Below, piece after piece: positions 10,424 to 42,045 of a stretch of DNA of 64,000 nt. The notes under the pieces were generated by a model, which was not told where the DNA came from, made no database searches, and worked only from the letters and a program-made list of their open reading frames with translations. The position numbers were made by a program, and so were the translations under genes. Positions within the stretch are counted from its first letter, which is position 1; each line of letters begins with the position of its first letter. The DNA comes from a virus, in the IMG/VR virus record IMGVR_UViG_3300045988_163359; one strand, given 5' to 3'.

Positions 10424-11083
10424 ATGGCAGCAGATGGAAAAGTTGTTATAGAAGTTGAATTAAAATCTGATCAAGTTGAAGGTCAGTTAAATGAACTTAA
10501 AAATGCCTTTGCTGATTTAGGTGGTGTTGGTAAAGTATTTGGAGAAATGAGTTCTCTAGTTGGAACTTTTTCAAATACTTTTAAAGCATTAAGTGGAATT
10601 GTTGGACCAGTTGCAGCAGGAGTTGTTGCAGCAGTAACTACAATGGTAACTGCTTTTTCAAAATTATATGATGCTAGTAAACAAAATTTCTTTGAAAACT
10701 TGCAGAATATATCTGAAAAATTACAACCAGTTGTTGATATTGTTCAAAATGCTACAAACACCATTTTGGATTGCTTTAGTCAAGTTACAGATTTTTCATT
10801 TGATTTCAGCACTCTAATGGCAGATGCAATTGAATTTGAGAGTTCTATGGCTCGTGTGTCTGGTATAATGGGTGTTTTAGGTGATGATGCAAAGGTTTTG
10901 ACAGAAACAACAAGACAATACGGAGCTACCACTAGGTACACCAGTGTACAGGTGAGTGAAGCTTTTAGCTATATGGGTATGGCAGGATTTTCATTACAAG
11001 AGTCTCTTGCGTCAATACAAGATGTTTTAAATTTAACTACCATCGGTGCCACTGAACTCGGCATTGCCAGTGATATCGTGACT
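10424..11083 (+). CDS. tail tape measure protein, exon 1 of 3
   Basis: TP901-type TMP core begins here (..YGATTRYTSVQVSEAFSYMGMAGF..ASDIVT). The reading frame loses TMP character after 11083. Confidence 0.8.
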
Positions 11084-11377
11084 AAAAAATTGGTCGGTTT
11101 AGTAGAAATACTATTCAAAAAACATTCGGTGAATTGCTGGAAAGCTAAGTTAATATTGATACTACAAATTAATAATTAATATGCTAATCAGCAACCAAGC
11201 CATGGAAAGCCATAAAAGTACATGGAAGGTTCAGAGACTAGGAGAATGAATAGGCGAATAATAATTTCTCCCACGAGCGCCGAACACCTTAACAAGTAAA
11301 GTTGAAGGTGATGATATAGTCCCATCCTCTTATGAAAATAAGAGTTCTAGGATAAAGAGCCTAGATATAAGATAATG
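11084..11377 (+). ncRNA. group I intron 1 (ORF-less, 294 nt)
   Basis: 5' exon ends in U and can pair with GGTCG 11092-11096 (P1 with U:G). P7-like CAGAGACTAGG and GATATAGTC boxes. Ends in G. Shares the 16-mer TAGGATAAAGAGCCTA with intron 2. Confidence 0.7.
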
Positions 11378-11482: not shown

Positions 11483-12753
11483 AGACGTTTTGCCCATGTA
11501 AAAACTCTTTAATTCGGTGAAACACTAAGTTGACAAGATTAGTTAAGAACTTTATAATAATATTTAACAGTTTCCCCCATAAATTCAAAGGAGAGTGTTA
11601 AGTTGGTGAGAAGATTAACTGATGAAGAATTTAAAGAAAGATTATTAAATTATAATAATGGAGAATATGAAAATGTAGAACCATACATAAATAAAAGAAC
11701 TAAAATTTTATTTAAACATAAATGCGGAAAGAAATTTTATTCTTATCCAATGGATGTATTGTATGGGAAGAAACATTGCCCTGTATGTATTAAGAAAAAA
11801 ATAAGTGAATTAACTCGAAAACCAAAAGAAAAATTTCTTGAAGAATTTAATGAATTAGCAAAAGGAGAATATACACTTTTAACAGATTACGAAAAATCTA
11901 ATAAAAAAGTAATTATAAAACATAATGTTTGTGGGCATAAATTTGAAGTCACACCAAATAATTTTATAAGCAAGAAAAGTAGATGCCCATTATGTTTTGG
12001 TGGAAATATAAAAAAGACAAAAGAACAATTTAAACAAGAAATTTTAGAGTTAACAGATGGAGAATTAATAGTAATAGGTGATTATACAAACAAAAATACA
12101 TTAATAGAAGTATTACATACAGAATGTAATCAAGTTTTTATGGCATACCCTAAAAGCCTTCTAAGAGGTTGTAGTTGTTCTCATTGTAAAGAAAGTAAAG
12201 GGGAGAGGGAAGTCAAAAGGGTTTTAAAAAAATTAAATTTACAATTTAAAAAACAATATAGATTTAAAGATTGTAGAGGAAAAAAATATCCATTACCTTT
12301 TGATTTTGCTGTTATAAAAGATGATAAAATAGATTTTTTAATTGAATATGACGGAGAACAACACTTTAAACCTATACAATTTAGAGGTATAAATGATAAA
12401 AAAGCCCTTAAATTACATAAAGAAACGCTAGAAAGGGATAATATAAAAACAAAATATTGTCTTAATAAAAATATAAGCCTATTAAGAATACCTTATTATA
12501 ATTTTAATAAAATTGAAGAAATAATATGTCAATATGTCAATACCGAGCCAAGCTAGTTAGGAAACTACTAGAAGGTGTAACGACTAGGTAAAGTAACCTA
12601 AGAAAAAAGAACCTGTGTAGGTTCTTTTTTTATGGAAAAATACCCACGAACAGGAGTGATTTATTCTTAATTGAATAATGAAAGATATAGTCTAAACTAT
12701 ATGGAAACATATAGAGCATAGGATAAAGAGCCTATGGTTAATCACAAAAATTG
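11483..12753 (+). mobile_element. group I intron 2 with homing endonuclease ORF (1271 nt)
   Basis: Exon end ATGGGT pairs perfectly with GCCCAT 11492-11497 (U:G at the splice site). GACTAGG / GATATAGTC core boxes. Terminal G 12753. Confidence 0.75.
11603..12556 (+). CDS. intron-encoded homing endonuclease, Vsr/PD-(D/E)xK-like with three Zn-ribbon modules
   Basis: Three H..CG..F....P......CPxC repeats. C-terminal GEREVKRVL...FDFAV...IEYDGEQHF...RDNIK...LLRIPY resembles Vsr/DUF559/EDxHD-type nucleases. Confidence 0.6.
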   Translation: MVRRLTDEEFKERLLNYNNGEYENVEPYINKRTKILFKHKCGKKFYSYPMDVLYGKKHCPVCIKKKISELTRKPKEKFLEEFNELAKGEYTLLTDYEKSNKKVIIKHNVCGHKFEVTPNNFISKKSRCPLCFGGNIKKTKEQFKQEILELTDGELIVIGDYTNKNTLIEVLHTECNQVFMAYPKSLLRGCSCSHCKESKGEREVKRVLKKLNLQFKKQYRFKDCRGKKYPLPFDFAVIKDDKIDFLIEYDGEQHFKPIQFRGINDKKALKLHKETLERDNIKTKYCLNKNISLLRIPYYNFNKIEEIICQYVNTEPS

Positions 12754-30816: not shown

Positions 30817-30846
30817 TGGACTATATAACTTTAACTATGGTATAAT
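30817..30846 (+). promoter_or_regulatory. putative promoter with extended -10 (TGGTATAAT)
   Basis: TGGACT, 18-nt spacer, TGgTATAAT. Overlaps two internal IR-like boxes AACTTTAACT(G/A)TGG (30806-19, 30827-40). Confidence 0.4.
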
Positions 30847-30874
30847 GAGGTATATTTATAAGAAGGAGGTTATT

Positions 30875-31381
30875 ATGAATTTTAAACAAGCATTAGAAGA
30901 AATGAAAAAAGGGAACAAAGTTAAACTACCTTCATGGGGTGGTTATTGGTGTTGGGATGACACTAAGCAAACTATTATGATGCACTGTAGACCAAAAGAT
31001 GCAGATAAAGGACAAGGTCCTATATTAGATATAAGAGAAACACAAAGAGTTGAATATACTCTAAGTAATGTTTTATCTGATGAATGGGTAATTGCTAATA
31101 ATGAAAACTGTACTTTATTAGGTGGAACTCCTACTTTTAACTTTGGTGAAGCCATAAAATATTTAAAACGAGGATTAAAAGTATGTAGACAAGGTTGGAA
31201 TGGTAAAAGAATGTATTTAGCTTACGTAAATCCTTATCAATACAAAGTAGATGGAGAAGTACATAAAGATAGTTTATTTTTATCACCTTGGATAGGCATG
31301 AAAACAGCAGATAATAAATTTGTCCCTTGGCTAGCAAGTCAAACCGATATGTTAGCAGAAGATTGGATGTTTGCTGAATAG
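30875..31381 (+). CDS. tandem DUF2829 protein (Tad2-like, candidate anti-Thoeris sponge)
   Basis: Second half FNFGEAIKYLKRGLKVCRQGWNGK..GMKTADNKFVPWLASQTDMLAEDW is a canonical DUF2829 signature. First half FKQALEEMKKGNKVKLPSWGGYW...LSDEW is a shorter copy. Confidence 0.7.
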   Translation: MNFKQALEEMKKGNKVKLPSWGGYWCWDDTKQTIMMHCRPKDADKGQGPILDIRETQRVEYTLSNVLSDEWVIANNENCTLLGGTPTFNFGEAIKYLKRGLKVCRQGWNGKRMYLAYVNPYQYKVDGEVHKDSLFLSPWIGMKTADNKFVPWLASQTDMLAEDWMFAE

Positions 31382-31638: not shown

Positions 31639-32952
31639 ATGAATATACTAAATTTACCAGAATTTGAAGTTTTAGACACAATACAAGATGACCACGATAT
31701 GACGGTAATAGTAAGACCAGTTAAAGAGCCTGTGGCTTGCCCAGAGTGTGGTGGAGTTGAATATTATAAGCATGGCAAATCCAAACGATTTGTAAGGGAT
31801 TTAAATAGCTTTGGGAAACGTGTAGGGATTGAAATACATACACATAGATATAAATGCAGATACTGCGGTACTACATTTAGTCAGCATTATAAGAGCATTG
31901 ACGATAGAGATAAAATCACTATACGTTTAAGAGAGCAAATAGAAAAAGAATCCCTTAAAAAGCCATTTGCCAATATAGCAGAAGAATATAGTGTTTCTCC
32001 TACCACAGTAAAGCGAATATTTAATGCTTACATAGAAAGGCTAGAAAAGGATATAACTTTCCTTACTCCAGTTATATTAGGTATAGACGAAGCACATCTT
32101 AACAAGAATATGAGAGCCGTTTACACCGATATAATTGGACGTAAGGTATTGGATATCCAGCCAAGCCGTAAGAAGGGCGATGTAAAGGATTTTCTAAATA
32201 AATTGCCTAACAAGGAGAACATAGAAGTAGTAACCATAGATATGTGGAGATACTACAAAGAGGCAGTATATGAGGAGTTGCCAAATGCTCAGGTAATCGT
32301 TGATAGATTCCATGTAATACAATTAGTCAACAATGCATTAGAAGGCGAGAGAAAGTCGTTTAAAGGCTCATTAGATAAGAAACAAAGGTCTAAACTGTTA
32401 AAAGATAGATTCTTGCTACTGAGGAACAAAGAGGATTTAAATGCTAGACAGATTTGGGATATGCAACTAATGTTTCTAGATTTTCCACAGTTAAAGTTAG
32501 CCTATGAGTTAAAGGAACAATTCCGAGATATCTATAAACACGATAACCGAGAAGATGCTTTAAAGGCTTATGAGGACTGGAAGAAGGCTGTTCCAAAAGA
32601 TATGAAATACTATCAAGATGTAATCAAAACAGTTGATAACTGGCAGTATGAGATATTTAACTATTTTACATGTAGAATTACAAATGCTTATACAGAGAGT
32701 TTAAATAACTTGATTAAGAACATAGAGAAAGCTGGCAGAGGTTACTCTTTTGAGGTACTTAGGGCAAAGGTCTTATTCGGTACAAGTGCTACTAGAAAAC
32801 CTAAATATGCAAGAGCAAATACAAGTAACAAAACATATACATTTACTACGGCATTTAGTTGGAATGATTTCGTAGGAAGTACAAAATTAATAGAAGGGTT
32901 TGGAGTAGATATTCCACAATTACTAGAGGTATTAGAGAGTGATAAATTTTAA
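31639..32952 (+). CDS. ISL3 family transposase
   Basis: N-terminal Zn-finger CPECGG...YKCRYCG. DDE region GIDEAHL.., IDMWRYYKEAV..VIVDRFHVIQL, TNAYTESLNNLIK..GRGY. Confidence 0.85.
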   Translation: MNILNLPEFEVLDTIQDDHDMTVIVRPVKEPVACPECGGVEYYKHGKSKRFVRDLNSFGKRVGIEIHTHRYKCRYCGTTFSQHYKSIDDRDKITIRLREQIEKESLKKPFANIAEEYSVSPTTVKRIFNAYIERLEKDITFLTPVILGIDEAHLNKNMRAVYTDIIGRKVLDIQPSRKKGDVKDFLNKLPNKENIEVVTIDMWRYYKEAVYEELPNAQVIVDRFHVIQLVNNALEGERKSFKGSLDKKQRSKLLKDRFLLLRNKEDLNARQIWDMQLMFLDFPQLKLAYELKEQFRDIYKHDNREDALKAYEDWKKAVPKDMKYYQDVIKTVDNWQYEIFNYFTCRITNAYTESLNNLIKNIEKAGRGYSFEVLRAKVLFGTSATRKPKYARANTSNKTYTFTTAFSWNDFVGSTKLIEGFGVDIPQLLEVLESDKF

Positions 32953-35948: not shown

Positions 35949-36764
35949 ATGTCAATAGTAAAACCAACAATCGTTGAAAAATGGCAAAAGAAAAACAAAT
36001 ATGGTAGACCTGGAACTCCATTAAATTATACAAAAGTAGCAATTCACTATACTGGTGAAGCAGATGTTAAAGGTTCTGCTACAGTTAACTATTTTAACAA
36101 TGTAGTTGCAAATGGAACAAAAGTTAATGGTAAATATGTATATGCATCAGCACATTTTGTTATTGATCTAAACGGAACAATATATCAATTAATACCTCTA
36201 AATGAAATGTGTTATTGTACAAATTCAGCTAATAGTTACGCTATTGGAGTTGAAGTTGCAACAACAGGAAAAGATAATCATTACACAGATGCTACATATA
36301 AAAGTATGGTTCATTTATGTGCATGGTTATGCGACAGAAAAGGATTAGACTGTAAAAAAGATATAATAAGACATACAGATGTGGTGGGTAGAGCATATAA
36401 ATTATGCCCAATATATATGGTTCTTAATCCTTCAAAATACACTCAATTCAAATTAGATTGTGCTAATTTAAAAGCTGGTAAGATAAAAACATCAAATATA
36501 ATTAATTGTACTAATGGAAAAGGAAAAGTCACAGTTATACCTACTACTGCTACTACTAAAACTAAATACATTAGAATATTAAAAGATGTAAATATACATA
36601 GCAAAGCTGATTTTAATTCAAGCAGTGTGGTAGGTAAAGTTACCGCTGGTGGAGCTTATACTGTAGTAGAAACTATAAAAAGAACTGGAACAGATATGTA
36701 TAAATTAAAATCAGGAGTATATATCACTGCCAGCCCAAAATATGTAGAAGTATTTGAAAAATAA
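35949..36764 (+). CDS. endolysin: N-acetylmuramoyl-L-alanine amidase (Amidase_2) with SH3b-like C-terminus
   Basis: HYTGE..SAHFVID..AIGVEV..RHTDV..KLCP amidase_2 motifs. C-terminal YIRILKDVNIHSKADF..GAYTVVE..MYKLKSGVYI. Confidence 0.8.
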   Translation: MSIVKPTIVEKWQKKNKYGRPGTPLNYTKVAIHYTGEADVKGSATVNYFNNVVANGTKVNGKYVYASAHFVIDLNGTIYQLIPLNEMCYCTNSANSYAIGVEVATTGKDNHYTDATYKSMVHLCAWLCDRKGLDCKKDIIRHTDVVGRAYKLCPIYMVLNPSKYTQFKLDCANLKAGKIKTSNIINCTNGKGKVTVIPTTATTKTKYIRILKDVNIHSKADFNSSSVVGKVTAGGAYTVVETIKRTGTDMYKLKSGVYITASPKYVEVFEK

Positions 36765-36775
36765 TTCTATCGGAC

Positions 36776-36829
36776 GCGACCGATAAGCGACCGATAAGCG
36801 ACCGATAAGCGACCGATAGCGACCGATAA
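36776..36829 (+). repeat. tandem repeat, 5 copies of GCGACCGATAA (11 bp; copy 4 is 10 bp)
   Basis: Read directly. GC-rich island in AT-rich DNA. Inverted half-site TATCGG at 36768-73. Confidence 0.9.
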
Positions 36830-36836
36830 TATTAAA

Positions 36837-36866: not shown

Positions 36867-36878
36867 GTTTTAGACAGC

Positions 36879-36910
36879 AAAAAACCACTCAAACGCCAAT
36901 AAGAGTGGTT
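36879..36910 (-). terminator. minus-strand rho-independent terminator downstream of the CRISPR array
   Basis: On the minus strand: AACCACTC-TTATTGGCGTTT-GAGTGGTT followed by a T-run. Confidence 0.6.
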
Positions 36911-37042
36911 CTGATGATAAATAAAACTATTAAAGAACTTCCACTCTAGCGCAAATAGAATGTAGTTCTTTGATTACTCAAATGGCGATAAGGGTGGTTT
37001 TTAACATAAGTTTATAATCATTTTTCAAATTGTGATATTATA

Positions 37043-37299
37043 GTTTTAATCCTTGTTCAACTGGAATATATTCTGTTACTGTTACAAACTTTGGCCGAGT
37101 GTTCTCCAGTAAATAGTTTTAATCCTTGTTCAACTGGAATATATTCTGTTACTTAAATTGGATTGTTATAATTTAAAAGCAGGAAAGAGTTTTAATCCTT
37201 GTTCAACTGGAATATATTCTGTTACATTTCTATTGTTTTTTCTGTTACAATGAACATAACAAGTTTTAATCCTTGTTTAATTAGAATATATTCTGTTAC
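37043..37299 (-). CRISPR. mini CRISPR array: 4 repeats of 37 nt, 3 spacers of 36-37 nt
   Basis: Plus-strand repeat GTTTTAATCCTTGTTCAACTGGAATATATTCTGTTAC at 37043, 37116 and 37189 (all identical), and at 37263 (3 transitions). Spacers are unique. Strand inferred from the anti-repeat wobble pattern and the terminator. Confidence 0.85.
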
Positions 37300-37439
37300 T
37301 CGTATTGACTGGAATTGAGTAATTCCAATACTTGTAACAATTGATTCAATTTCAAATATGTTTGAAAAACAATTATTATTTTGAAAATAACATATTCAAC
37401 AAGGTATTAACATATACTCCTAATTTAGTAATATCAATC

Positions 37440-37618
37440 AATACAAGGATTGAACTAATATATATCAATAATCTTGTAATAACAGAACATATTCCAATTA
37501 ACAAGGTTCCTTCTTCAAGGGATTCCCTTTTGCCTAAGCTACTTGGGTTTGTGTAATCCTCCAAAGGCATCAATTCGGGGTTAAACCTCCCTACATACCG
37601 AATTAATCTTGCTAGTGA
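37440..37618 (-). ncRNA. putative tracrRNA / omega-RNA-derived scaffold with anti-repeat (37476-37508); boundaries uncertain
   Basis: Segment complementary to the CRISPR repeat (23/26 core identities, 2 G:U-compatible changes, 1 bulge). 7-bp hairpin AATTCGG/CCGAATT at 37572-37604. Immediately 3' of tnpB. Confidence 0.55.
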
Positions 37619-38761
37619 TTATTGTTCGGTTTGATAATTTGCTAAATTTATAGCAGCATTTAAATCCCTATCAATTACAGTACCACATTCAGGACAAGTA
37701 TATGTTCTATCACTTAATTTCAAGTCCTTCTTAATATGTCCACAATTAGAACAAGTTTTACTACTTGGATACCATCTATCTGCTTTTACTAGCTCAATAC
37801 CTTTATATTTACATTTATATTCAAGCTGTTTTGTTATTTCATATAAACCTTGTTTCCCTATTGATTCTGATAGATGTTTGTTTTTCATCATACCTTTTAT
37901 ATTTAAATCTTCTATTACGATTTTAGAAGGATTCATATTAACTATATCAGCAGTTATATTGTGATTATAGTTATTTCTAATATTAGCAAGTCTTTTGTGT
38001 AGTTTATTAATTTCCTTTTCAAGTTTCACTATATTATTTGTTTTATTATAGATTTTTCCTTGTCTATTTTGTTCATATTTTCTGCTCACCTGTCTTTGTA
38101 GTTTTTTTAGTCTTTTTTCTATTCTCTTTATATGAGCAGTTTTATTAATATTTTTATATTTTTTGCCTGTACTAAGTATTGCAGTATCTTTCAACCCTAA
38201 ATCAATTCCTATTGTTCCATTAAGTTCTGAACTAGTGTAATCTTCTTCATCTACTCCAACTGATATATACCAATTAAGTCCGTCAAAAGTAACTCTAGGA
38301 TTACTATATTTTTTCACAATAGGTACATAGTTTTTCCTACTTAGTTTCACTATCCCAATTTTCGGCAATTTAACTTGATTTTCGTTAAATCTAATTGCTT
38401 GATAATTAGGCATGAATGAAGGTGTTGAGTGTTTTTTGCTTTTAAATTTTGGATAACCTATTTTCTGACCTTTTTTACAACCTCGAAAAAAGTTTTTGAA
38501 TGATGTACAGGCATCTGTATATGCTCCAACAAGTGCTATACTATCAACTTCCTTTAGCCAACTATACTCATCTTGTTTTTTTAGTGCAGTTAAATGTTTA
38601 CTCATACCCATAGCACTTACAAATTTTTCCCCTTGTTCTCGTCTTTCCTTTTGGAAAGCTAAGCACCAGTTGTATACGAATCTAGTACACCCAGCAGTCC
38701 TGAACATCAATTCCATTTGTTCTTTTGTAGGTTCTAGTCTTACTTTATAACTTTTTATCAT
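37619..38761 (-). CDS. tnpB: TnpB-type RNA-guided RuvC nuclease (IS605 OrfB family), 380 aa
   Basis: MIKSYKVRLEPTKEQ N-terminus. RuvC-I GIDLGLKD, RuvC-II VIEDLNIKG. Zn ribbon CSNCGH..CPECG. RuvC-III DRDLNAAINL. Confidence 0.85.
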   Translation of the reverse strand: MIKSYKVRLEPTKEQMELMFRTAGCTRFVYNWCLAFQKERREQGEKFVSAMGMSKHLTALKKQDEYSWLKEVDSIALVGAYTDACTSFKNFFRGCKKGQKIGYPKFKSKKHSTPSFMPNYQAIRFNENQVKLPKIGIVKLSRKNYVPIVKKYSNPRVTFDGLNWYISVGVDEEDYTSSELNGTIGIDLGLKDTAILSTGKKYKNINKTAHIKRIEKRLKKLQRQVSRKYEQNRQGKIYNKTNNIVKLEKEINKLHKRLANIRNNYNHNITADIVNMNPSKIVIEDLNIKGMMKNKHLSESIGKQGLYEITKQLEYKCKYKGIELVKADRWYPSSKTCSNCGHIKKDLKLSDRTYTCPECGTVIDRDLNAAINLANYQTEQ

Positions 38762-38883: not shown

Positions 38884-39030
38884 ATGGCAGTTAAACAAAG
38901 TAAAGTCGGAGTGCTTATAAATATGGATAGGGAATTAAAATCCAAATTAGAAGAATTAGCAAAAAACGATTGTAGGTCTTTAACAAATTTAATTAATAAA
39001 ATTTTAAATGATTATATTAATAGTAAATAA
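38884..39030 (+). CDS. ribbon-helix-helix (CopG/Arc-like) protein, 48 aa
   Basis: Not in the track. VGVLINMDRELKSKLEELAKNDCRSLTNLINKIL is a beta-strand plus two helices, the RHH pattern. Confidence 0.55.
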   Translation: MAVKQSKVGVLINMDRELKSKLEELAKNDCRSLTNLINKILNDYINSK

Positions 39031-39070: not shown

Positions 39071-39361
39071 TTAATCAGGCATTTCTTCTTCCATTTTAAG
39101 AAGACTTTCTCTTACAATTCTTTGATCTTCATCTTCTTCTATTTGTTCTGTATTTTTTATTTGTTTAGCAACTTGTGAAACATCACCAAGAGTTACATTA
39201 ACTTGTATATTGTTGAAGTCAATTTGTTTTAGGATATTCCACTCACTTAATATTACTTGTATTGCATCATTTCTGCTTGATAAATCTCTTTCTGCTTGAA
39301 ACTTGCTTATCATATCCCAAAAATTTTCTTCTATATATACTGTACTTGATTTTTTTGCCAT
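39071..39361 (-). CDS. parR: ParR-like centromere-binding adaptor
   Basis: 96 aa, directly downstream of the parM-like gene. RHH-like N-terminus, acidic C-terminus. Confidence 0.5.
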   Translation of the reverse strand: MAKKSSTVYIEENFWDMISKFQAERDLSSRNDAIQVILSEWNILKQIDFNNIQVNVTLGDVSQVAKQIKNTEQIEEDEDQRIVRESLLKMEEEMPD

Positions 39362-39373
39362 AATTAATCACCT

Positions 39374-40297
39374 TTAAAATTTTAATTTTGCAAACTTAAA
39401 TAATCCAATTGCAGTAGCCATTTGAGAATTATCAACTCTATCAAAGTCATCAGAAGGTTCAAGATTTAAAGAAGTTCCACCTGCTAAATATAACTTCATT
39501 TCATCTTTGTTTATCCAATTTTCTTCTACTATTTGATTTACTTTTTCAGAACCTAATTTATATGCTTTCTTTTTAAGTAGATCATAATCATCAGAACTAT
39601 CTATTTCGTTTACACTTTTTGCAATTCCACTTGCCATTAAATTATCTTGTATTATTTTTAGCATTGTACTGTTTCCGTATTCAACAGTATTAGATAATCT
39701 GTCATTAAATTGGAAACCTTTATCAAAATATGATAGTTCCATAGTTCTGAAACCAACGTTAACAAGTCCTACTGGCTTATCTTTATTTACCTTTCCATTA
39801 ATAGCATAGTATAAAGCCGCATCGCCCTCTCTAGCGATTGTTACATCTTCTATAAATATTTTCTTAGTTGCATTTGTTATATTGTCTTTTATAGTGATTG
39901 TTTCGCCTTTATATGTATTTACTATGTCAGCTAATACTGATTTCTTATAGTTTTTATATGGTACTCCAAATACTACTTTTACAGTATCTTTTACTGCTAT
40001 ATCGTTTAGTGCTGATGCAAATAATATCTTCATAGTATCACTTGTTTTTGAATCTTGTGAATTTCTTATAGAAGAATAAGATTCTCTTTCTGCTAATAAA
40101 CCAACGAAATAGTCTTCACCTTCTATATTTAAGTATTTAGGTTTTTCGTAATTTTCAAAGTCAACTTTACCTGAACGTCCATCACCATATACTGACTTAA
40201 ATATTGTTTGTTTTGCCTCTCCATCTACTTCTGTATAAGCCTTAATGTAACCTCTACCGCCATCAAAACCTATAAATTGAACATCTTTTTTAGCCAT
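39374..40297 (-). CDS. parM: ParM/Alp-type actin-like plasmid segregation ATPase
   Basis: FIGFDGGRGYIKAY phosphate-1 motif, VNVGFRTMEL, YLAGGTS adenosine motif. 307 aa. Confidence 0.7.
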   Translation of the reverse strand: MAKKDVQFIGFDGGRGYIKAYTEVDGEAKQTIFKSVYGDGRSGKVDFENYEKPKYLNIEGEDYFVGLLAERESYSSIRNSQDSKTSDTMKILFASALNDIAVKDTVKVVFGVPYKNYKKSVLADIVNTYKGETITIKDNITNATKKIFIEDVTIAREGDAALYYAINGKVNKDKPVGLVNVGFRTMELSYFDKGFQFNDRLSNTVEYGNSTMLKIIQDNLMASGIAKSVNEIDSSDDYDLLKKKAYKLGSEKVNQIVEENWINKDEMKLYLAGGTSLNLEPSDDFDRVDNSQMATAIGLFKFAKLKF

Positions 40298-40950: not shown

Positions 40951-42045
40951 ATGTCTAAATTTAAAAGCAGTAATGAATCTATATTTATAGCAAGTTCAAA
41001 ATTAGCACAAGGTTTTACTGTTATACCTAATGAAATTATGAATGACATGAAGTTGATGGGTCCAGATGCTTATTTTGTATTCGGTAAAATTTTACAATAC
41101 ATAACCAATCCTGATCATAAAATTACAATACAGGGTTTATCTACTCAATTAGGAGTAAGTAAAACAAGAGTATCTAACGGTCTAAATAAACTTATAGAAA
41201 TCGGTTACATAAAAAGAACACCTCTAAAAAACGGTAACCTTACAAATGGTTATTTATACGAAGTTTTTAGCGAAAAACAAAACGTAGATATTACGAACGT
41301 AAACGATAACGTAAATACGAACGTAAGCGAAAAAACTAATAACGATGAAAGCGTTGAAAACACTACATCTCACCGTAATCCTAAAAACTGGGATACCGAA
41401 AATAGGGATACCAATTTCTGCGATACCGATTTTCGATACGCTAATAAAGAAAATAATAATAACAACTATATTAATAAAGAAAATGAAGTTGTTGTTGGTG
41501 TTGAAAAAGAAACAAAACTTATAGAATTATATAAGTCTTTTAAAATTGAAAAAAGATTTATGCCACATACTAAAAAACTACTTTTAGAATATGCAAATAA
41601 ATTTGATTTAGATGTATTTGAACAAGTTTTTATAGCAGCAAGTGAAGAAAGTGTTAGTAAAAAATATGCTTATATGAAACAAGTTTTTGAAAATCTAGAT
41701 AAAAAAAATATAGTAACTTTAGATGATTATCAAAAGGATCAAGCAGAATTTAAAAATAAAAAACAAAATAAAAAAGACAAAGGAAAAACTGTTACAAAAG
41801 ATACTGGAAAAGAAAATAAAAAACCTTTAACAAAGTATCACGATACATTTAATGAACACTATAAAAATTATACATCTGATGAATTAGACGATAAGCTTAG
41901 ACAGTCTAAATCTAATAACAATAATAATTTAGAAGAACAATTATATTTAGCAGCAGTTGAAAATGGTTTTAATTCTTTAAGCGATTTGTCACAAAGTAGA
42001 GTATTACATTATGCTACAGAAAATAATTTAGATATTCCAAAATAA
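40951..42045 (+). CDS. replication initiator (N-terminal wHTH, C-terminal DnaD-like domain)
   Basis: FTVIPNEIMNDM..GPDAYFVFGKILQYI..LSTQLGVSKTRVSNGLNKLIEIGYIKR. C-terminal ..LLLEYANKFDLDVFEQVFIAA..KKYAYMKQVFENL. Confidence 0.65.
   Translation: MSKFKSSNESIFIASSKLAQGFTVIPNEIMNDMKLMGPDAYFVFGKILQYITNPDHKITIQGLSTQLGVSKTRVSNGLNKLIEIGYIKRTPLKNGNLTNGYLYEVFSEKQNVDITNVNDNVNTNVSEKTNNDESVENTTSHRNPKNWDTENRDTNFCDTDFRYANKENNNNNYINKENEVVVGVEKETKLIELYKSFKIEKRFMPHTKKLLLEYANKFDLDVFEQVFIAASEESVSKKYAYMKQVFENLDKKNIVTLDDYQKDQAEFKNKKQNKKDKGKTVTKDTGKENKKPLTKYHDTFNEHYKNYTSDELDDKLRQSKSNNNNNLEEQLYLAAVENGFNSLSDLSQSRVLHYATENNLDIPK
41281..41441 (+). repeat. iteron-like repeats inside rep
   Basis: ACGAACGTAA x2, GATAACGTAA, then GGGATACCGAAAAT / GGGATACCAATTT / GCGATACCGATTTT / CGATACGC. 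Confidence 0.6.

What the first reader, a model, noticed from the sequence alone, without database searches (positions are those of the whole stretch)
37476..37508. Anti-repeat whose differences from the repeat are G:U-compensated only if both RNAs come from the tnpB strand
Plus-strand text 37476-37508 is GTAATAACAGAACATATTCCAATTAACAAGGTT. It is the inverted counterpart of the repeat (reverse complement of the repeat: GTAACAGAATATATTCCAGTTGAACAAGG...). Over the 26-nt core ACAGAA..CAAGG there are 23 identities, two substitutions and one single-nt gap, and a further GTA pairs beyond a 3-nt bulge. Both substitutions are transitions. They give U:G and G:U wobble pairs if crRNA and anti-repeat are both transcribed from the minus strand, but A:C mismatches if transcribed from the plus strand. 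This is the signature of a selected RNA duplex. It assigns the array to the tnpB strand independently of the minus-strand terminator at 36879-36910. A shorter second match (37443-37452, ACAAGGATTG) may be a relic of duplication.
Basis: seen in the sequence. Interest (0 to 1): 0.8.

Follow-up and report, generated by a model that had tools for sequence, protein, structure and literature searches.

The report
Phage TnpB tracrRNA anti-repeat, mini-CRISPR
The flagged 33 bases are the anti-repeat of a tracrRNA that lets a transposon-type TnpB nuclease in a gut phage use a four-repeat CRISPR array against rival phages; this kind of system (TranC / type V-U) is already described, but close relatives here preserve the stages before and after the guide RNA split.

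Summary
Window 37476-37508 is, outside the array, the best partner of the CRISPR repeat on either strand. On the minus strand it forms 28 bp with one bulge and four G:U pairs (-36.5 kcal/mol; background -8.5±3.0). It directly abuts a full-length Rfam RAGATH-18 match on the minus strand (37567-37507, 62 bits), downstream of a 380-aa TnpB (E 1e-82 to ISFba1 IS607 TnpB, PDB 8IAZ).

The window's two transitions alone are weak evidence (p≈0.25). Twenty-eight distinct anti-repeat/repeat combinations from IMG/VR relatives are stronger. They give 97% pairing, nine compensatory pairs, and G:U at 12 positions on the tnpB strand against 3 on the other.

Relatives 88% identical carry the unsplit reRNA. 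The anti-repeat is its terminal hairpin, and the repeat's 3' end (ACAAGGATTAAAAC) is its scaffold end.

All three window spacers match other phage contigs next to 5'-TTTA. Phages that carry a parM-targeting spacer have seed mismatches in their own parM. No Cas1, Cas2 or Cas4 was found.

This is a TnpB-derived, tracrRNA-dependent mini-CRISPR of the TranC / type V-U kind, in the IS607/RAGATH-18 lineage: a new member of a known kind.

The parts
37619..38761 (-). Effector gene: a 380-aa TnpB-type RuvC nuclease of the IS607 lineage.
   Evidence: Pfam finds HTH_OrfB_IS605, OrfB_IS605 and Cas12f1-like_TNB domains. phmmer against PDB gives 8iaz_A (ISFba1 IS607 TnpB) at E 1.2e-82 over the full length. 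The catalytic residues D187, E284 and D364 and the CxxC...CxxC zinc finger align with it.
37568..37632 (-). Predicted 5' part of the tracrRNA. It has two stem-loops and overlaps the last codons of tnpB.
   Evidence: It is conserved in all related loci, including clade B, where it stands apart from tnpB behind its own promoter-like site. It is colinear with the L004 reRNA scaffold. The 5' end is inferred.
37507..37567 (-). RAGATH-18 motif, the core of the tracrRNA scaffold.
   Evidence: Rfam RF03064: 62.3 bits against a gathering score of 44.9, E 5.7e-10, model positions 1-71 of 71.
37479..37506 (-). Anti-repeat: 28 nt that pair with repeat positions 1-29.
   Evidence: RNAduplex gives -36.5 kcal/mol, 28 bp, one bulge and four G:U pairs. 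It is the best partner of the repeat in the window outside the array. Covariation across related loci supports the pairing.
37465..37478 (-). Decayed remnant of the ancestral reRNA 3' end: UACAAG-AUUAUUGA in the window against ACAAGGAUUAAAAC in the unsplit form.
   Evidence: The window's tracrRNA end aligns with the unsplit L004 reRNA end at 37 of 41 positions. The cis hairpin is no longer significant: -5.2 kcal/mol, z -0.1, against -10.1, z -2.6 in L004.
37443..37454 (-). Second short element complementary to the repeat's 3' handle (ACAAGGAUU). Its function is unresolved.
   Evidence: It appears as inverted repeats I16-I19. Counterparts are visible in clade A and clade B leaders by inspection. 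The local hairpin is not significant.
37395..37416 (-). Third element: a partly deleted copy of the anti-repeat inside the leader.
   Evidence: It appears as inverted repeats I7 and I8 and is present in the clade A leader alignment.
37300..37464 (-). AT-rich leader between the tracrRNA and the array.
   Evidence: It aligns across the sibling loci. The promoter scan was not informative.
37263..37299 (-). Repeat 1, the variant type GTAACAGAATATATTCTAATTAAACAAGGATTAAAAC.
   Evidence: The same variant is the standard repeat in part of the L013 and L007 arrays. Its C-to-U change again gives a U:G pair on the minus strand.
37226..37262 (-). Spacer 1 (37 nt).
   Evidence: It matches 37/37 next to 5'-TTTA in L166, a different phage contig.
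37189..37225 (-). Repeat 2.
37153..37188 (-). Spacer 2 (36 nt).
   Evidence: It matches 36/36 next to 5'-TTTA in the lysin gene of sibling phage L024. By inspection, the window's own lysin allele matches only about 29/36.
37116..37152 (-). Repeat 3.
37080..37115 (-). Spacer 3 (36 nt), the oldest spacer. Variant forms of it occur in L001 and L009.
   Evidence: It matches 31/36 next to 5'-TTTA in L166; the L001 variant matches 33/36.
37043..37079 (-). Repeat 4, the one farthest from tnpB.
36879..36910 (-). Terminator-like hairpin followed by a U-tract, closing the tnpB-tracrRNA-array unit.
   Evidence: The fold is -12.8 kcal/mol, z -2.6, with a 10-bp stem followed by UUUUUUG. The simple terminator scan missed it, probably because the long loop exceeds that scan's loop limit (my inference).
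38884..39030 (+). A 48-aa ribbon-helix-helix (Arc-like) gene transcribed divergently from tnpB. It may be a regulator, but it is not shown to belong to the system.
   Evidence: Pfam RHH_5 (weak) and PHROG 582, Arc-like repressor. It is 100% identical and syntenic in all sibling loci.

Best explanation
The flagged segment is the anti-repeat of a tracrRNA that belongs to a TnpB-derived mini-CRISPR system. The system is carried by a roughly 64-kb phage, possibly a phage-plasmid, of a gut Peptostreptococcaceae-type host.

Proposed mechanism:
1. The minus strand is transcribed through tnpB (38761-37619).
2. The 3' end of that transcript yields an RNA of about 155 nt, made of two stem-loops, the RAGATH-18 core and the anti-repeat (about 37632-37479). 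This is the old IS607 right-end guide RNA (reRNA) scaffold with its 3' end decayed.
3. The array (37299-37043) is transcribed on the same strand and ends at the hairpin at 36910-36879.
4. Each repeat pairs through its first 29 nt with the anti-repeat. The resulting 28-bp duplex replaces the ancestral terminal hairpin.
5. The last 8 nt of the repeat (AUUAAAAC) and the spacer then sit exactly where the scaffold end and guide sit in the single-molecule reRNA.
6. The TnpB-tracrRNA-crRNA complex cleaves DNA that matches the spacer next to a 5'-TTTA motif.
7. The targets are rival phages and sibling elements, at their lysin, parM, parR-like, replication and ISL3 transposase genes.

Shown here: the pairing, its strand, its conservation and covariation, the homology to the unsplit reRNA, the spacer matches with their TTTA flank, and the seed mismatches in the carriers' own copies.

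Inferred: transcription and processing (probably RNase III acting on the 28-bp duplex), nuclease activity, and how spacers are acquired without Cas1-Cas2.
For: Pairing: the duplex energy is -36.5 kcal/mol on the minus strand and -26.9 on the plus strand. The site is the best partner of the repeat in the window outside the array.

Scaffold: RAGATH-18 on the minus strand abuts the anti-repeat. Ren et al. 2024 (PMC11061315) show that RAGATH-18-derived reRNAs guide IS607 TnpBs.

Protein: the match to 8IAZ is full length at E 1.2e-82, and the catalytic residues are conserved.

Conservation and covariation: 27 pairs over 28 distinct rows give 97.2% paired cells, nine compensatory pairs and a covariation score of 0.42 against 0.18 in shuffles. 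G:U occurs at 12 positions on the tnpB strand and A:C at 3. The tnpB-strand duplex is the more stable one in every locus.

Origin: the unsplit reRNA of L004 and L052 is colinear with the window's tracrRNA at 37 of 41 positions and ends in ACAAGGATTAAAAC followed by its guide. The cis hairpin has decayed in the split loci.

Function: all three window spacers have protospacers flanked by TTTA. Over 15 spacers, position -3 is T in 14, -2 is T in 13 and -1 is A in 13, while TTTA has a background frequency of 0.015. Phages that carry the parM spacer have mismatches at guide positions 2 and 5 in their own parM, whereas some non-carriers match perfectly.
Against: There is no expression data, so the transcript ends, the processing and the nuclease activity are all inferred.

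The tracrRNA folded alone is no more stable than shuffled sequence.

The side on which the TTTA motif lies cannot by itself decide the strand. The same geometry would fit a type II-like reading on the plus strand.

The rows used for covariation fall into a few lineages (clade A, L010, clade B, L019), so the compensatory changes represent few independent events.

One protospacer site has CTTG instead of TTTA.

In ISFba1, the apical loop of the equivalent hairpin forms pseudoknot PK2, which is needed for RNP assembly. How a long intermolecular duplex could replace PK2 is unknown.
Confidence: 0.85

Rival explanations
1. The complementarity is only inherited. The repeat arose by duplicating the self-complementary terminal hairpin of the reRNA. 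On this view TnpB still works with a single-molecule RNA or not at all, and the array is an inert by-product.
For: The 3' part of the tracrRNA and the repeat resemble each other directly on the same strand (local alignment). Relatives L003 and L005 keep an intact reRNA end with its guide, followed directly by repeats.
Against: The window's own scaffold end is decayed and its cis hairpin is no longer significant. In clade B the fold predicted for the tracrRNA end alone does not use the CUUGU segment and is not significant, yet that end pairs with the repeats over about 28-29 bp at -32 to -38 kcal/mol. Nine pairs changed on both sides between lineages. Spacers are diverse and flanked by TTTA. 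Carriers have seed mismatches in their own copies.
Confidence: 0.07
2. The array is transcribed from the plus strand and is used by a host-encoded Cas system, for example a type II-like system with a 3' TAAA PAM. It would then be a virus-borne orphan mini-array that happens to lie next to a TnpB.
For: The plus-strand repeat begins GTTTTA, like many type II repeats. The position of the PAM is mirror-consistent with a 3' PAM for a spacer-then-repeat crRNA (reasoning).
Against: No Cas9, Cas1, Cas2 or Cas4 appeared among the 25 families listed for 69 window ORFs scanned against PADLOC, a list that reached down to E 3.9e-9; 49 further families were not shown. The G:U/A:C asymmetry and the duplex energies favour the minus strand. 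The anti-repeat is fused to a minus-strand RAGATH-18. The repeat's end equals the reRNA scaffold end of sibling TnpBs. The array travels with this TnpB lineage in both gene orders.
Confidence: 0.03
3. The match is a chance inverted repeat in AT-rich DNA.
For: The region is AT-rich, and many weak inverted repeats are listed there.
Against: The 19-mer search found 5 matches against 0.12 expected. The duplex energy lies more than 9 standard deviations beyond the window background. The pairing is conserved with covariation in more than 20 loci.
Confidence: 0.01

Closest known systems
TranC (transposon-CRISPR intermediates; Jin et al. 2025, Cell 188:6283; known here only through citing papers)
   Same: A protein of TnpB size and architecture sits next to a short CRISPR array. 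Its reRNA is functionally split into a tracrRNA and a crRNA. IS607-derived lineages are reported, there are no adaptation genes, and some members are phage-borne (CauTranC9).
   Different: I could not place this protein in the published clade numbering. The structurally characterised LaTranC matches only over the C-terminal RuvC part (E 5.5e-29). The protein here has 380 aa, shorter than the 414-aa average of the smallest clade described. No activity data exist for it.
IS607 TnpB with RAGATH-18-derived reRNA (ISFba1; PDB 8IAZ; Ren et al. 2024, PMC11061315)
   Same: The protein is homologous over its full length (E 1.2e-82) with the same catalytic residues. The RAGATH-18 core lies downstream of tnpB. 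The guide sits 3' of a scaffold that ends in a terminal hairpin.
   Different: Here the guide comes from a CRISPR repeat-spacer unit that pairs in trans. No serine-recombinase tnpA is adjacent. The inferred target motif is TTTA rather than AGGAG or GAGGG. The TAM-reading residues K80, K83 and N121 of ISFba1 align with I75, V78 and a gap.
Type V-U* candidate subtypes (Altae-Tran et al. 2023, PNAS, PMC10691335) and Cas12n (type V-U4 to my recollection, not checked here)
   Same: TnpB-like effectors are linked to arrays without Cas1, Cas2 or Cas4, and the array usually lies downstream of the effector. That paper proposed that arrays arise by serial duplication of ωRNA segments.
   Different: Membership in a particular V-U branch was not testable here. 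The structure cited as Cas12n (9J09, 540 aa) matches only at E 6e-28 over the RuvC part. In the clade B relatives the array lies upstream of the effector, which that paper describes as uncommon.
Cas12f (type V-F)
   Same: It is a miniature tracrRNA-dependent type V effector. PADLOC Cas12f and Cas12u4 models match one window ORF, presumably this one.
   Different: Solved Cas12f structures match far more weakly (E 1e-10 to 1e-15) than TnpBs do. The protein lacks the size increase typical of Cas12f, whose average is 481 aa.

Membership tests
TranC / tracrRNA-dependent type V (V-U-like) CRISPR | A TnpB/Cas12-type RuvC effector encoded next to a CRISPR array. | tested here: met
   The 380-aa TnpB gene (37619-38761, minus strand) lies about 320 nt upstream of four 37-nt repeats on the same strand. 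The association is conserved in more than 20 related loci.
TranC / tracrRNA-dependent type V (V-U-like) CRISPR | The guide RNA is split: a tracrRNA homologous to the reRNA scaffold, with an anti-repeat complementary to the repeat. | tested here: met
   RAGATH-18 is followed directly by the anti-repeat on the minus strand. The duplex has 28 bp. Covariation supports it. The tracrRNA is colinear with the unsplit reRNA of L004.
TranC / tracrRNA-dependent type V (V-U-like) CRISPR | Variable spacers that match mobile elements next to a consistent PAM. | tested here: met
   Sixty distinct spacers were collected. Eleven credible target sites lie in phage contigs, nearly all flanked by 5'-TTTA.
TranC / tracrRNA-dependent type V (V-U-like) CRISPR | Demonstrated crRNA- and tracrRNA-guided DNA cleavage, and use of both crRNA and reRNA. 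| not testable with these tools
   This needs biochemistry. The only indirect support is the seed mismatches in the carriers' own parM copies.
TranC / tracrRNA-dependent type V (V-U-like) CRISPR | Placement in one of the published TranC clades or V-U branches. | not testable with these tools
   The Jin et al. paper and the supplements of the 2026 preprint are not held.
IS607 TnpB / RAGATH-18 reRNA (OMEGA) element | A RAGATH-18 RNA downstream of a TnpB homologous to ISFba1. | tested here: met
   Rfam gives 62.3 bits against a gathering score of 44.9. 8iaz_A matches at E 1.2e-82 over the full length.
IS607 TnpB / RAGATH-18 reRNA (OMEGA) element | A single-molecule reRNA whose scaffold end abuts the guide at the transposon's right end. 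| tested here: not met
   The window's scaffold end is decayed (UACAAG-AUUAUUGA) and is followed by a leader and an array. The feature is met in relatives L004 and L052.
IS607 TnpB / RAGATH-18 reRNA (OMEGA) element | An associated serine-recombinase TnpA, or mobility. | tested here: not met
   The neighbours are an RHH gene, parM/parR-like genes and a lysin gene. The position is fixed and syntenic in the sibling phages. The only transposase in the window is of the ISL3 family and lies elsewhere.
IS607 TnpB / RAGATH-18 reRNA (OMEGA) element | A G-rich TAM (AGGAG or GAGGG). | tested here: not met
   The protospacer flanks give TTTA. The residues that contact the TAM in ISFba1 are not conserved.
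Canonical adaptive CRISPR-Cas locus | Cas1-Cas2 (with or without Cas4) adaptation genes. | tested here: not met
   A PADLOC scan of 69 window ORFs listed no Cas1, Cas2 or Cas4 among its 25 shown families, which reached down to E 3.9e-9; 49 further families were not shown.
Cas12f (type V-F) | Closer sequence relationship to Cas12f than to TnpB. | tested here: not met
   TnpBs match at E 1e-55 to 1e-82, while Cas12f structures match at 1e-10 to 1e-15.

The most novel reading that the evidence does not exclude
This family of gut phages may preserve every stage in the birth of a CRISPR system from an IS607 guide RNA. Among effectors 86-96% identical to each other, and in sister lineages 60-69% identical, four architectures are found:
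- an unsplit reRNA (L004, L052);
- an intact reRNA with its guide fused to a few repeats (L003, L005, L020);
- a split tracrRNA with a decayed end, followed by a leader and an array (the window);
- a re-ordered tracrRNA-array-effector operon with its own promoter-like site (L011-L018).

Alongside these stages the target motif changed from G-rich to TTTA. Spacers turn over in a PAM-aware way without Cas1-Cas2. The arrays are used for warfare between sibling phage-plasmids, which escape through synonymous seed mutations.

If this series has not already been described, it would let each evolutionary step be rebuilt and tested with natural sequences.
Probability: 0.3. Interest if true: 0.7.

Novelty: new member of a known kind. 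Interest (0 to 1): 0.5.

Why it matters
The finding gives a clear natural example of how a transposon guide RNA becomes a tracrRNA plus crRNA. The 'before' form (88% identical protein, unsplit RNA) and the 'after' form sit in related phage contigs, and the homology can be read base by base.

At 380 aa, the effector would be among the smallest CRISPR-associated nucleases. Its inferred PAM is a simple TTTA, unlike the restrictive AGGAG TAM of characterised IS607 TnpBs. That is relevant to the search for compact genome editors.

Biologically, it shows phages using a TnpB-CRISPR system against rival and sibling phages. Seed mutations in the carriers' own genes appear to distinguish self from non-self.

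Public records label these proteins only as 'transposase' or 'TnpB'.

Tried and rejected
- BLAST of the array and tracrRNA region against GenBank phages found nothing. Megablast of 20 kb around the locus against phages and plasmids found only a 47-nt match to C. difficile phiCD211-type phages.
- The scan of GTDB representative genomes gave no relative above 56% identity, so it provided no host locus and no extra covariation.
- The sigma-70 promoter scan found no more sites than shuffled sequence, so it says nothing about tracrRNA or array promoters. The terminator scan missed the 36910-36879 hairpin.
- The minimum-free-energy fold of the tracrRNA alone is no better than shuffles (z -0.4) and did not reproduce the RAGATH-18 fold. 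I relied on the covariance model instead.
- I first took the TTTA flank as evidence for the strand, then rejected that. The geometry is mirror-symmetric with a type II reading, so it shows only which end of the spacer is PAM-proximal.
- I considered whether expansion of the 11-nt tandem repeat at 36775-36829 lets the window escape the L002/L007 spacer. I rejected this because the 24 PAM-proximal nt still match perfectly.
- A hairpin formed by the second short element (37443-37454) is not significant (z -1.1). By eye, the stems do not covary cleanly between siblings.
- The Jin et al. 2025 paper and the supplements of the 2026 preprint are not held. Assignment to a published clade was therefore impossible.

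Full report
**1. The observation**

The quoted text and coordinates are correct.
- Four 37-nt repeats lie at 37043-37079, 37116-37152, 37189-37225 and 37263-37299. The spacers between them are 36, 36 and 37 nt.
- The plus-strand text at 37476-37508 is the inverted counterpart of the repeat.
- A 19-mer from the repeat, allowing up to 3 mismatches, finds only the four repeats and this site. Chance would give 0.12 matches.
- I scored every 45-nt stretch of both strands outside the array for duplex formation with the repeat RNA. The minus strand at about 37469-37522 is the best partner at -36.5 kcal/mol. The background is -8.5±3.0 and the next best is -23.3.
- The minus/minus duplex has 28 bp, one bulged A and four G:U pairs (-36.5 kcal/mol). 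The plus/plus duplex scores -26.9.
- The G:U argument is weak within the window alone. Two of two transitions gives p = 0.25, and four G:U against zero A:C gives p of about 0.06.

**2. What surrounds it**

- The ORF at 38761-37619 (minus strand) encodes a 380-aa TnpB with HTH_OrfB_IS605, OrfB_IS605 and Cas12f1-like TNB domains.
- Its best solved relative is 8iaz_A, the IS607 TnpB ISFba1, at E 1.2e-82 over the full length. ISDra2 TnpB follows at 1.5e-55. LaTranC (5.5e-29), the structure cited as Cas12n (9J09) and Cas12f match only over the RuvC part.
- The catalytic residues D187, E284 and D364 and the zinc finger are conserved.
- Rfam finds a complete RAGATH-18 on the minus strand at 37567-37507 (62.3 bits, E 5.7e-10). 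Its last base lies one base before the first paired base of the anti-repeat.
- RAGATH-18 is the core of the guide RNA (reRNA) of IS607 TnpBs (Ren et al. 2024, PMC11061315).
- A 10-bp stem followed by a U-tract closes the unit at 36910-36879 on the minus strand.
- No Cas1, Cas2, Cas4 or Cas9 appears among the 25 families listed for 69 window ORFs scanned against PADLOC. That list reached down to E 3.9e-9, and 49 further families were not shown.
- The context is a phage. A lysin gene lies at 35949-36764, with holin-sized ORFs, structural genes, parM/parR-like genes and a DnaD-like replication gene nearby.
- The exact protein occurs on many 64-77-kb contigs. Cluster members are labelled only 'transposase' or 'TnpB'. 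One comes from Romboutsia timonensis and others from Caudoviricetes MAGs.

**3. Related loci**

IMG/VR holds 76 loci with relatives of the TnpB. The repeat itself was found in 8 contigs. Four groups are relevant.

*Clade A (86-96% identical).*
- Most have the window's layout: tnpB, tracrRNA, a leader of about 190 nt, then an array of 2-8 repeats with different spacers.
- L004 and L052 (88% identical) have no array. After RAGATH-18 they read AACCTTGTTTAATTGGAATAT[A/G]TTCTGTTATACAAGGATTAAAAC, followed by unique sequence. This is an ordinary single-molecule reRNA with a significant terminal hairpin (-10.1 kcal/mol, z -2.6).
- The window's tracrRNA is colinear with that reRNA at 37 of 41 positions. 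Its end is decayed (UACAAG-AUUAUUGA), and its cis hairpin is no longer significant (-5.2 kcal/mol, z -0.1).
- The anti-repeat is therefore the ancestral terminal hairpin. The repeat's 3' end, ACAAGGATTAAAAC, is the ancestral scaffold end that abuts the guide.
- L003 and L005 keep an intact reRNA end with a guide, followed directly by repeats.

*Clade B (L011-L018, 64-69% identical).*
- The repeat is different: GTACAAATGTAATATACAATATAACAAGTATTGAAAC.
- The gene order is different too: a promoter-like site, then the tracrRNA with RAGATH-18, a leader, the array, and finally tnpB. No RAGATH-18 lies downstream of the gene.

*L019 (60% identical)* has tnpB, an reRNA-like RNA, a leader and an array. 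*L020* has short 21-nt repeats after an reRNA end.

*Relatives at 56% identity or less* showed no array in the k-mer screen, with the single exception of L074; the GTDB loci were not screened for arrays.

**4. Conservation and covariation of the pairing**

- I joined each anti-repeat to each repeat variant of the same locus. This gave 28 distinct rows (alignment A1).
- For a 27-pair helix, 97.2% of cells form standard pairs. The figure is 82.1±1.0% when the 3' letters are shuffled and 30-49% when the partners are slid by 1-3 columns.
- Nine pairs show changes on both sides, for example C:G, A:U and G:C at the closing pair. The covariation score is 0.42 against 0.18.
- Departures that are transitions are G:U on the tnpB strand at 12 pair positions (66 cells). 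They are A:C, which would be G:U on the other strand, at 3 positions (10 cells). A one-sided binomial test over positions gives about 0.018 (my calculation).
- In every locus the tnpB-strand duplex is more stable than the opposite-strand duplex, often by about 10 kcal/mol.
- In clade B, the fold predicted for the tracrRNA end alone does not use the CUUGU segment and is not significant. Trans pairing is therefore the best explanation for its conservation.
- Caveat: the rows fall into few lineages, so the number of independent compensatory events is small.

**5. Evidence of function**

- Sixty distinct spacers were collected from the related loci.
- All three window spacers have targets. Spacer 1 matches 37/37 in L166, a different phage contig with primase-helicase, HNH and major-capsid genes. 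Spacer 2 matches 36/36 in the lysin gene of sibling L024, whereas the window's own allele matches about 29/36. Spacer 3 matches 31/36 in L166.
- Spacers from relatives hit this window in five places: the parM-like gene (39670-39705), the 96-aa ORF next to it (39178-39213), the DnaD-like gene (41716-41750), the ISL3 transposase (32666-32701) and the tandem-repeat region at 36763-36832.
- Over 15 spacers (11 credible sites), the flank on the repeat-proximal side is T at -3 (14/15), T at -2 (13/15), A at -1 (13/15) and T at -4 (11/15). TTTA has a background frequency of 0.015. One site has CTTG instead.
- The PAM-proximal end of the spacer is the end joined to ...AUUAAAAC. That is the geometry expected for TnpB and Cas12.
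- This geometry cannot decide the strand, because a type II-like reading on the plus strand is its mirror image. No such effector was found in the window.
- TTTA differs from the AGGAG or GAGGG TAM of characterised IS607 TnpBs. The residues that read the TAM in ISFba1 (K80, K83, N121) align with I75, V78 and a gap.
- Phages that carry the parM spacer (L007, L009) have mismatches at guide positions 2 and 5 in their own parM, right next to TTTA. L006, L008 and L024 match perfectly. The ParM proteins are 99.7-100% identical to the window's, except L002's at 92%. This is the pattern expected if the system really cuts.

**6. Mechanism**

The steps are set out under the best explanation. In short, the old reRNA scaffold serves as the tracrRNA. 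Each repeat supplies the 3' arm and scaffold end in trans. The 28-bp duplex replaces the 13-bp hairpin. The spacer occupies the position of the guide.

Transcription, RNase III processing, cleavage and spacer acquisition are inferred. One point remains open. In ISFba1 the apical loop of the equivalent hairpin forms a pseudoknot (PK2) needed for RNP assembly, and it is unclear what replaces it here.

**7. Comparison with what is known**

- The concept is published. TranC systems, derived from IS605 or IS607 TnpBs with the reRNA split into tracrRNA and crRNA, were described by Jin et al. 2025. I know that work only through citing papers.
- Forty TnpB-like V-U* branches with arrays and without adaptation genes were described by Altae-Tran et al. 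2023, who proposed that arrays arise by duplication of ωRNA segments.
- A phage-borne, domain-unexpanded member, CauTranC9, was reported in a 2026 preprint.
- I could not test membership in a particular published clade.
- The locus fails three of the five defining features I tested for a mobile IS607 OMEGA element: no tnpA, no single-molecule guide, and no G-rich TAM. It meets all testable features of a tracrRNA-dependent TnpB-derived CRISPR system.

**8. Verdict**

The locus is a new member of a known kind, with interest of about 0.5.

The added value is threefold. The unsplit, fused, split and re-ordered forms occur among closely related effectors. The PAM is TTTA. Sibling phages target each other and escape through seed mutations.

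Noticed in passing
L011-L018 (for example L012 2000-4134): In relatives 64-69% identical, the order is: a promoter-like site, the tracrRNA (RAGATH-18, with no tnpB upstream), a leader, an array of 2-8 repeats, then tnpB. No RAGATH-18 lies downstream of the gene. The last repeat is truncated into the tnpB ribosome-binding site. Altae-Tran et al. 2023 say arrays lie downstream of the effector in almost all conserved Cas12 associations.
   Followed up: partly
L003 4246-4509, L005 1508-1703, L020 4290-4440: These loci look like intermediates. An intact reRNA scaffold end with its own guide is followed directly by 2-3 repeats, with no leader. In L020 the repeats are only about 21 nt (the 3' arm plus the tail), and the locus has three RAGATH-18 copies.
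   Followed up: partly
window 36775-36829: Five tandem copies of an 11-nt unit (AGCGACCGATA) lie between the lysin gene and the array terminator. A version of this region with fewer copies is the protospacer of a spacer carried by L002 and L007. The copy number differs among siblings. In the window the 24 PAM-proximal nt still match, so the expansion is probably not an escape.
   Followed up: partly
window 39670-39705 (parM-like gene) and the same site in L006-L024: There are two alleles that differ at guide positions 2 and 5 next to TTTA. The phages that carry the matching spacer have the mismatched allele. The window and L013 have it too, although they lack the spacer.
   Followed up: yes
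window 36876-36922 and 36976-37009: The terminator-like element matches an unannotated intergenic stretch among small ORFs in C. difficile phiCD211-type phages and phage-plasmids (47 nt, 91.7%). A decayed second copy lies 89 nt away in the window. It is the only near-identical match of 20 kb of this window to GenBank phages or PLSDB plasmids.
   Followed up: partly
window 37443-37454 and 37395-37416: Two further short elements in the leader are complementary to the repeat. One matches the 3' handle ACAAGGAUU, and the other is a partly deleted copy of the anti-repeat. Counterparts exist in clade A siblings and, by eye, in clade B leaders. They may be relics of duplication or alternative pairing sites.
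   Followed up: partly
window 11073-11344 (+): A group I intron (Rfam RF00028, 106 bits) lies between ORFs 10424-11179 and 11603-12556 in the structural gene region.
   Followed up: no
window 31639-32952 (+) and 30845-31381 (+): There is an ISL3-family DDE transposase, whose gene is hit by a spacer of sibling L021 at 32666-32701. Next to it is a Tad2-like (anti-Thoeris) gene.
   Followed up: no
L007 4445-5026: This array looks like a recombinant. Its first units are L021-type and L013-type. A 63-nt 'spacer' then equals the end of the L002 leader, and the L002 array follows. The window's repeat 1 is likewise the variant used in L013. Arrays seem to be reshuffled between co-infecting siblings.
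   Followed up: partly
L074 3839-4363: A distant relative (42% identical, truncated match, GC-richer) is followed by about 8 repeats of roughly 36 nt (GATTCGATTCGTGAAAACGTACGAATTGGGAA...). No RAGATH-18 reaches the gathering score there. It may be an independent TnpB-array association.
   Followed up: no
window 38884-39030 (+): A 48-aa Arc/RHH-type gene is transcribed divergently from tnpB. It is 100% identical in all syntenic siblings, even though the neighbouring genes vary. It may regulate tnpB.
   Followed up: partly
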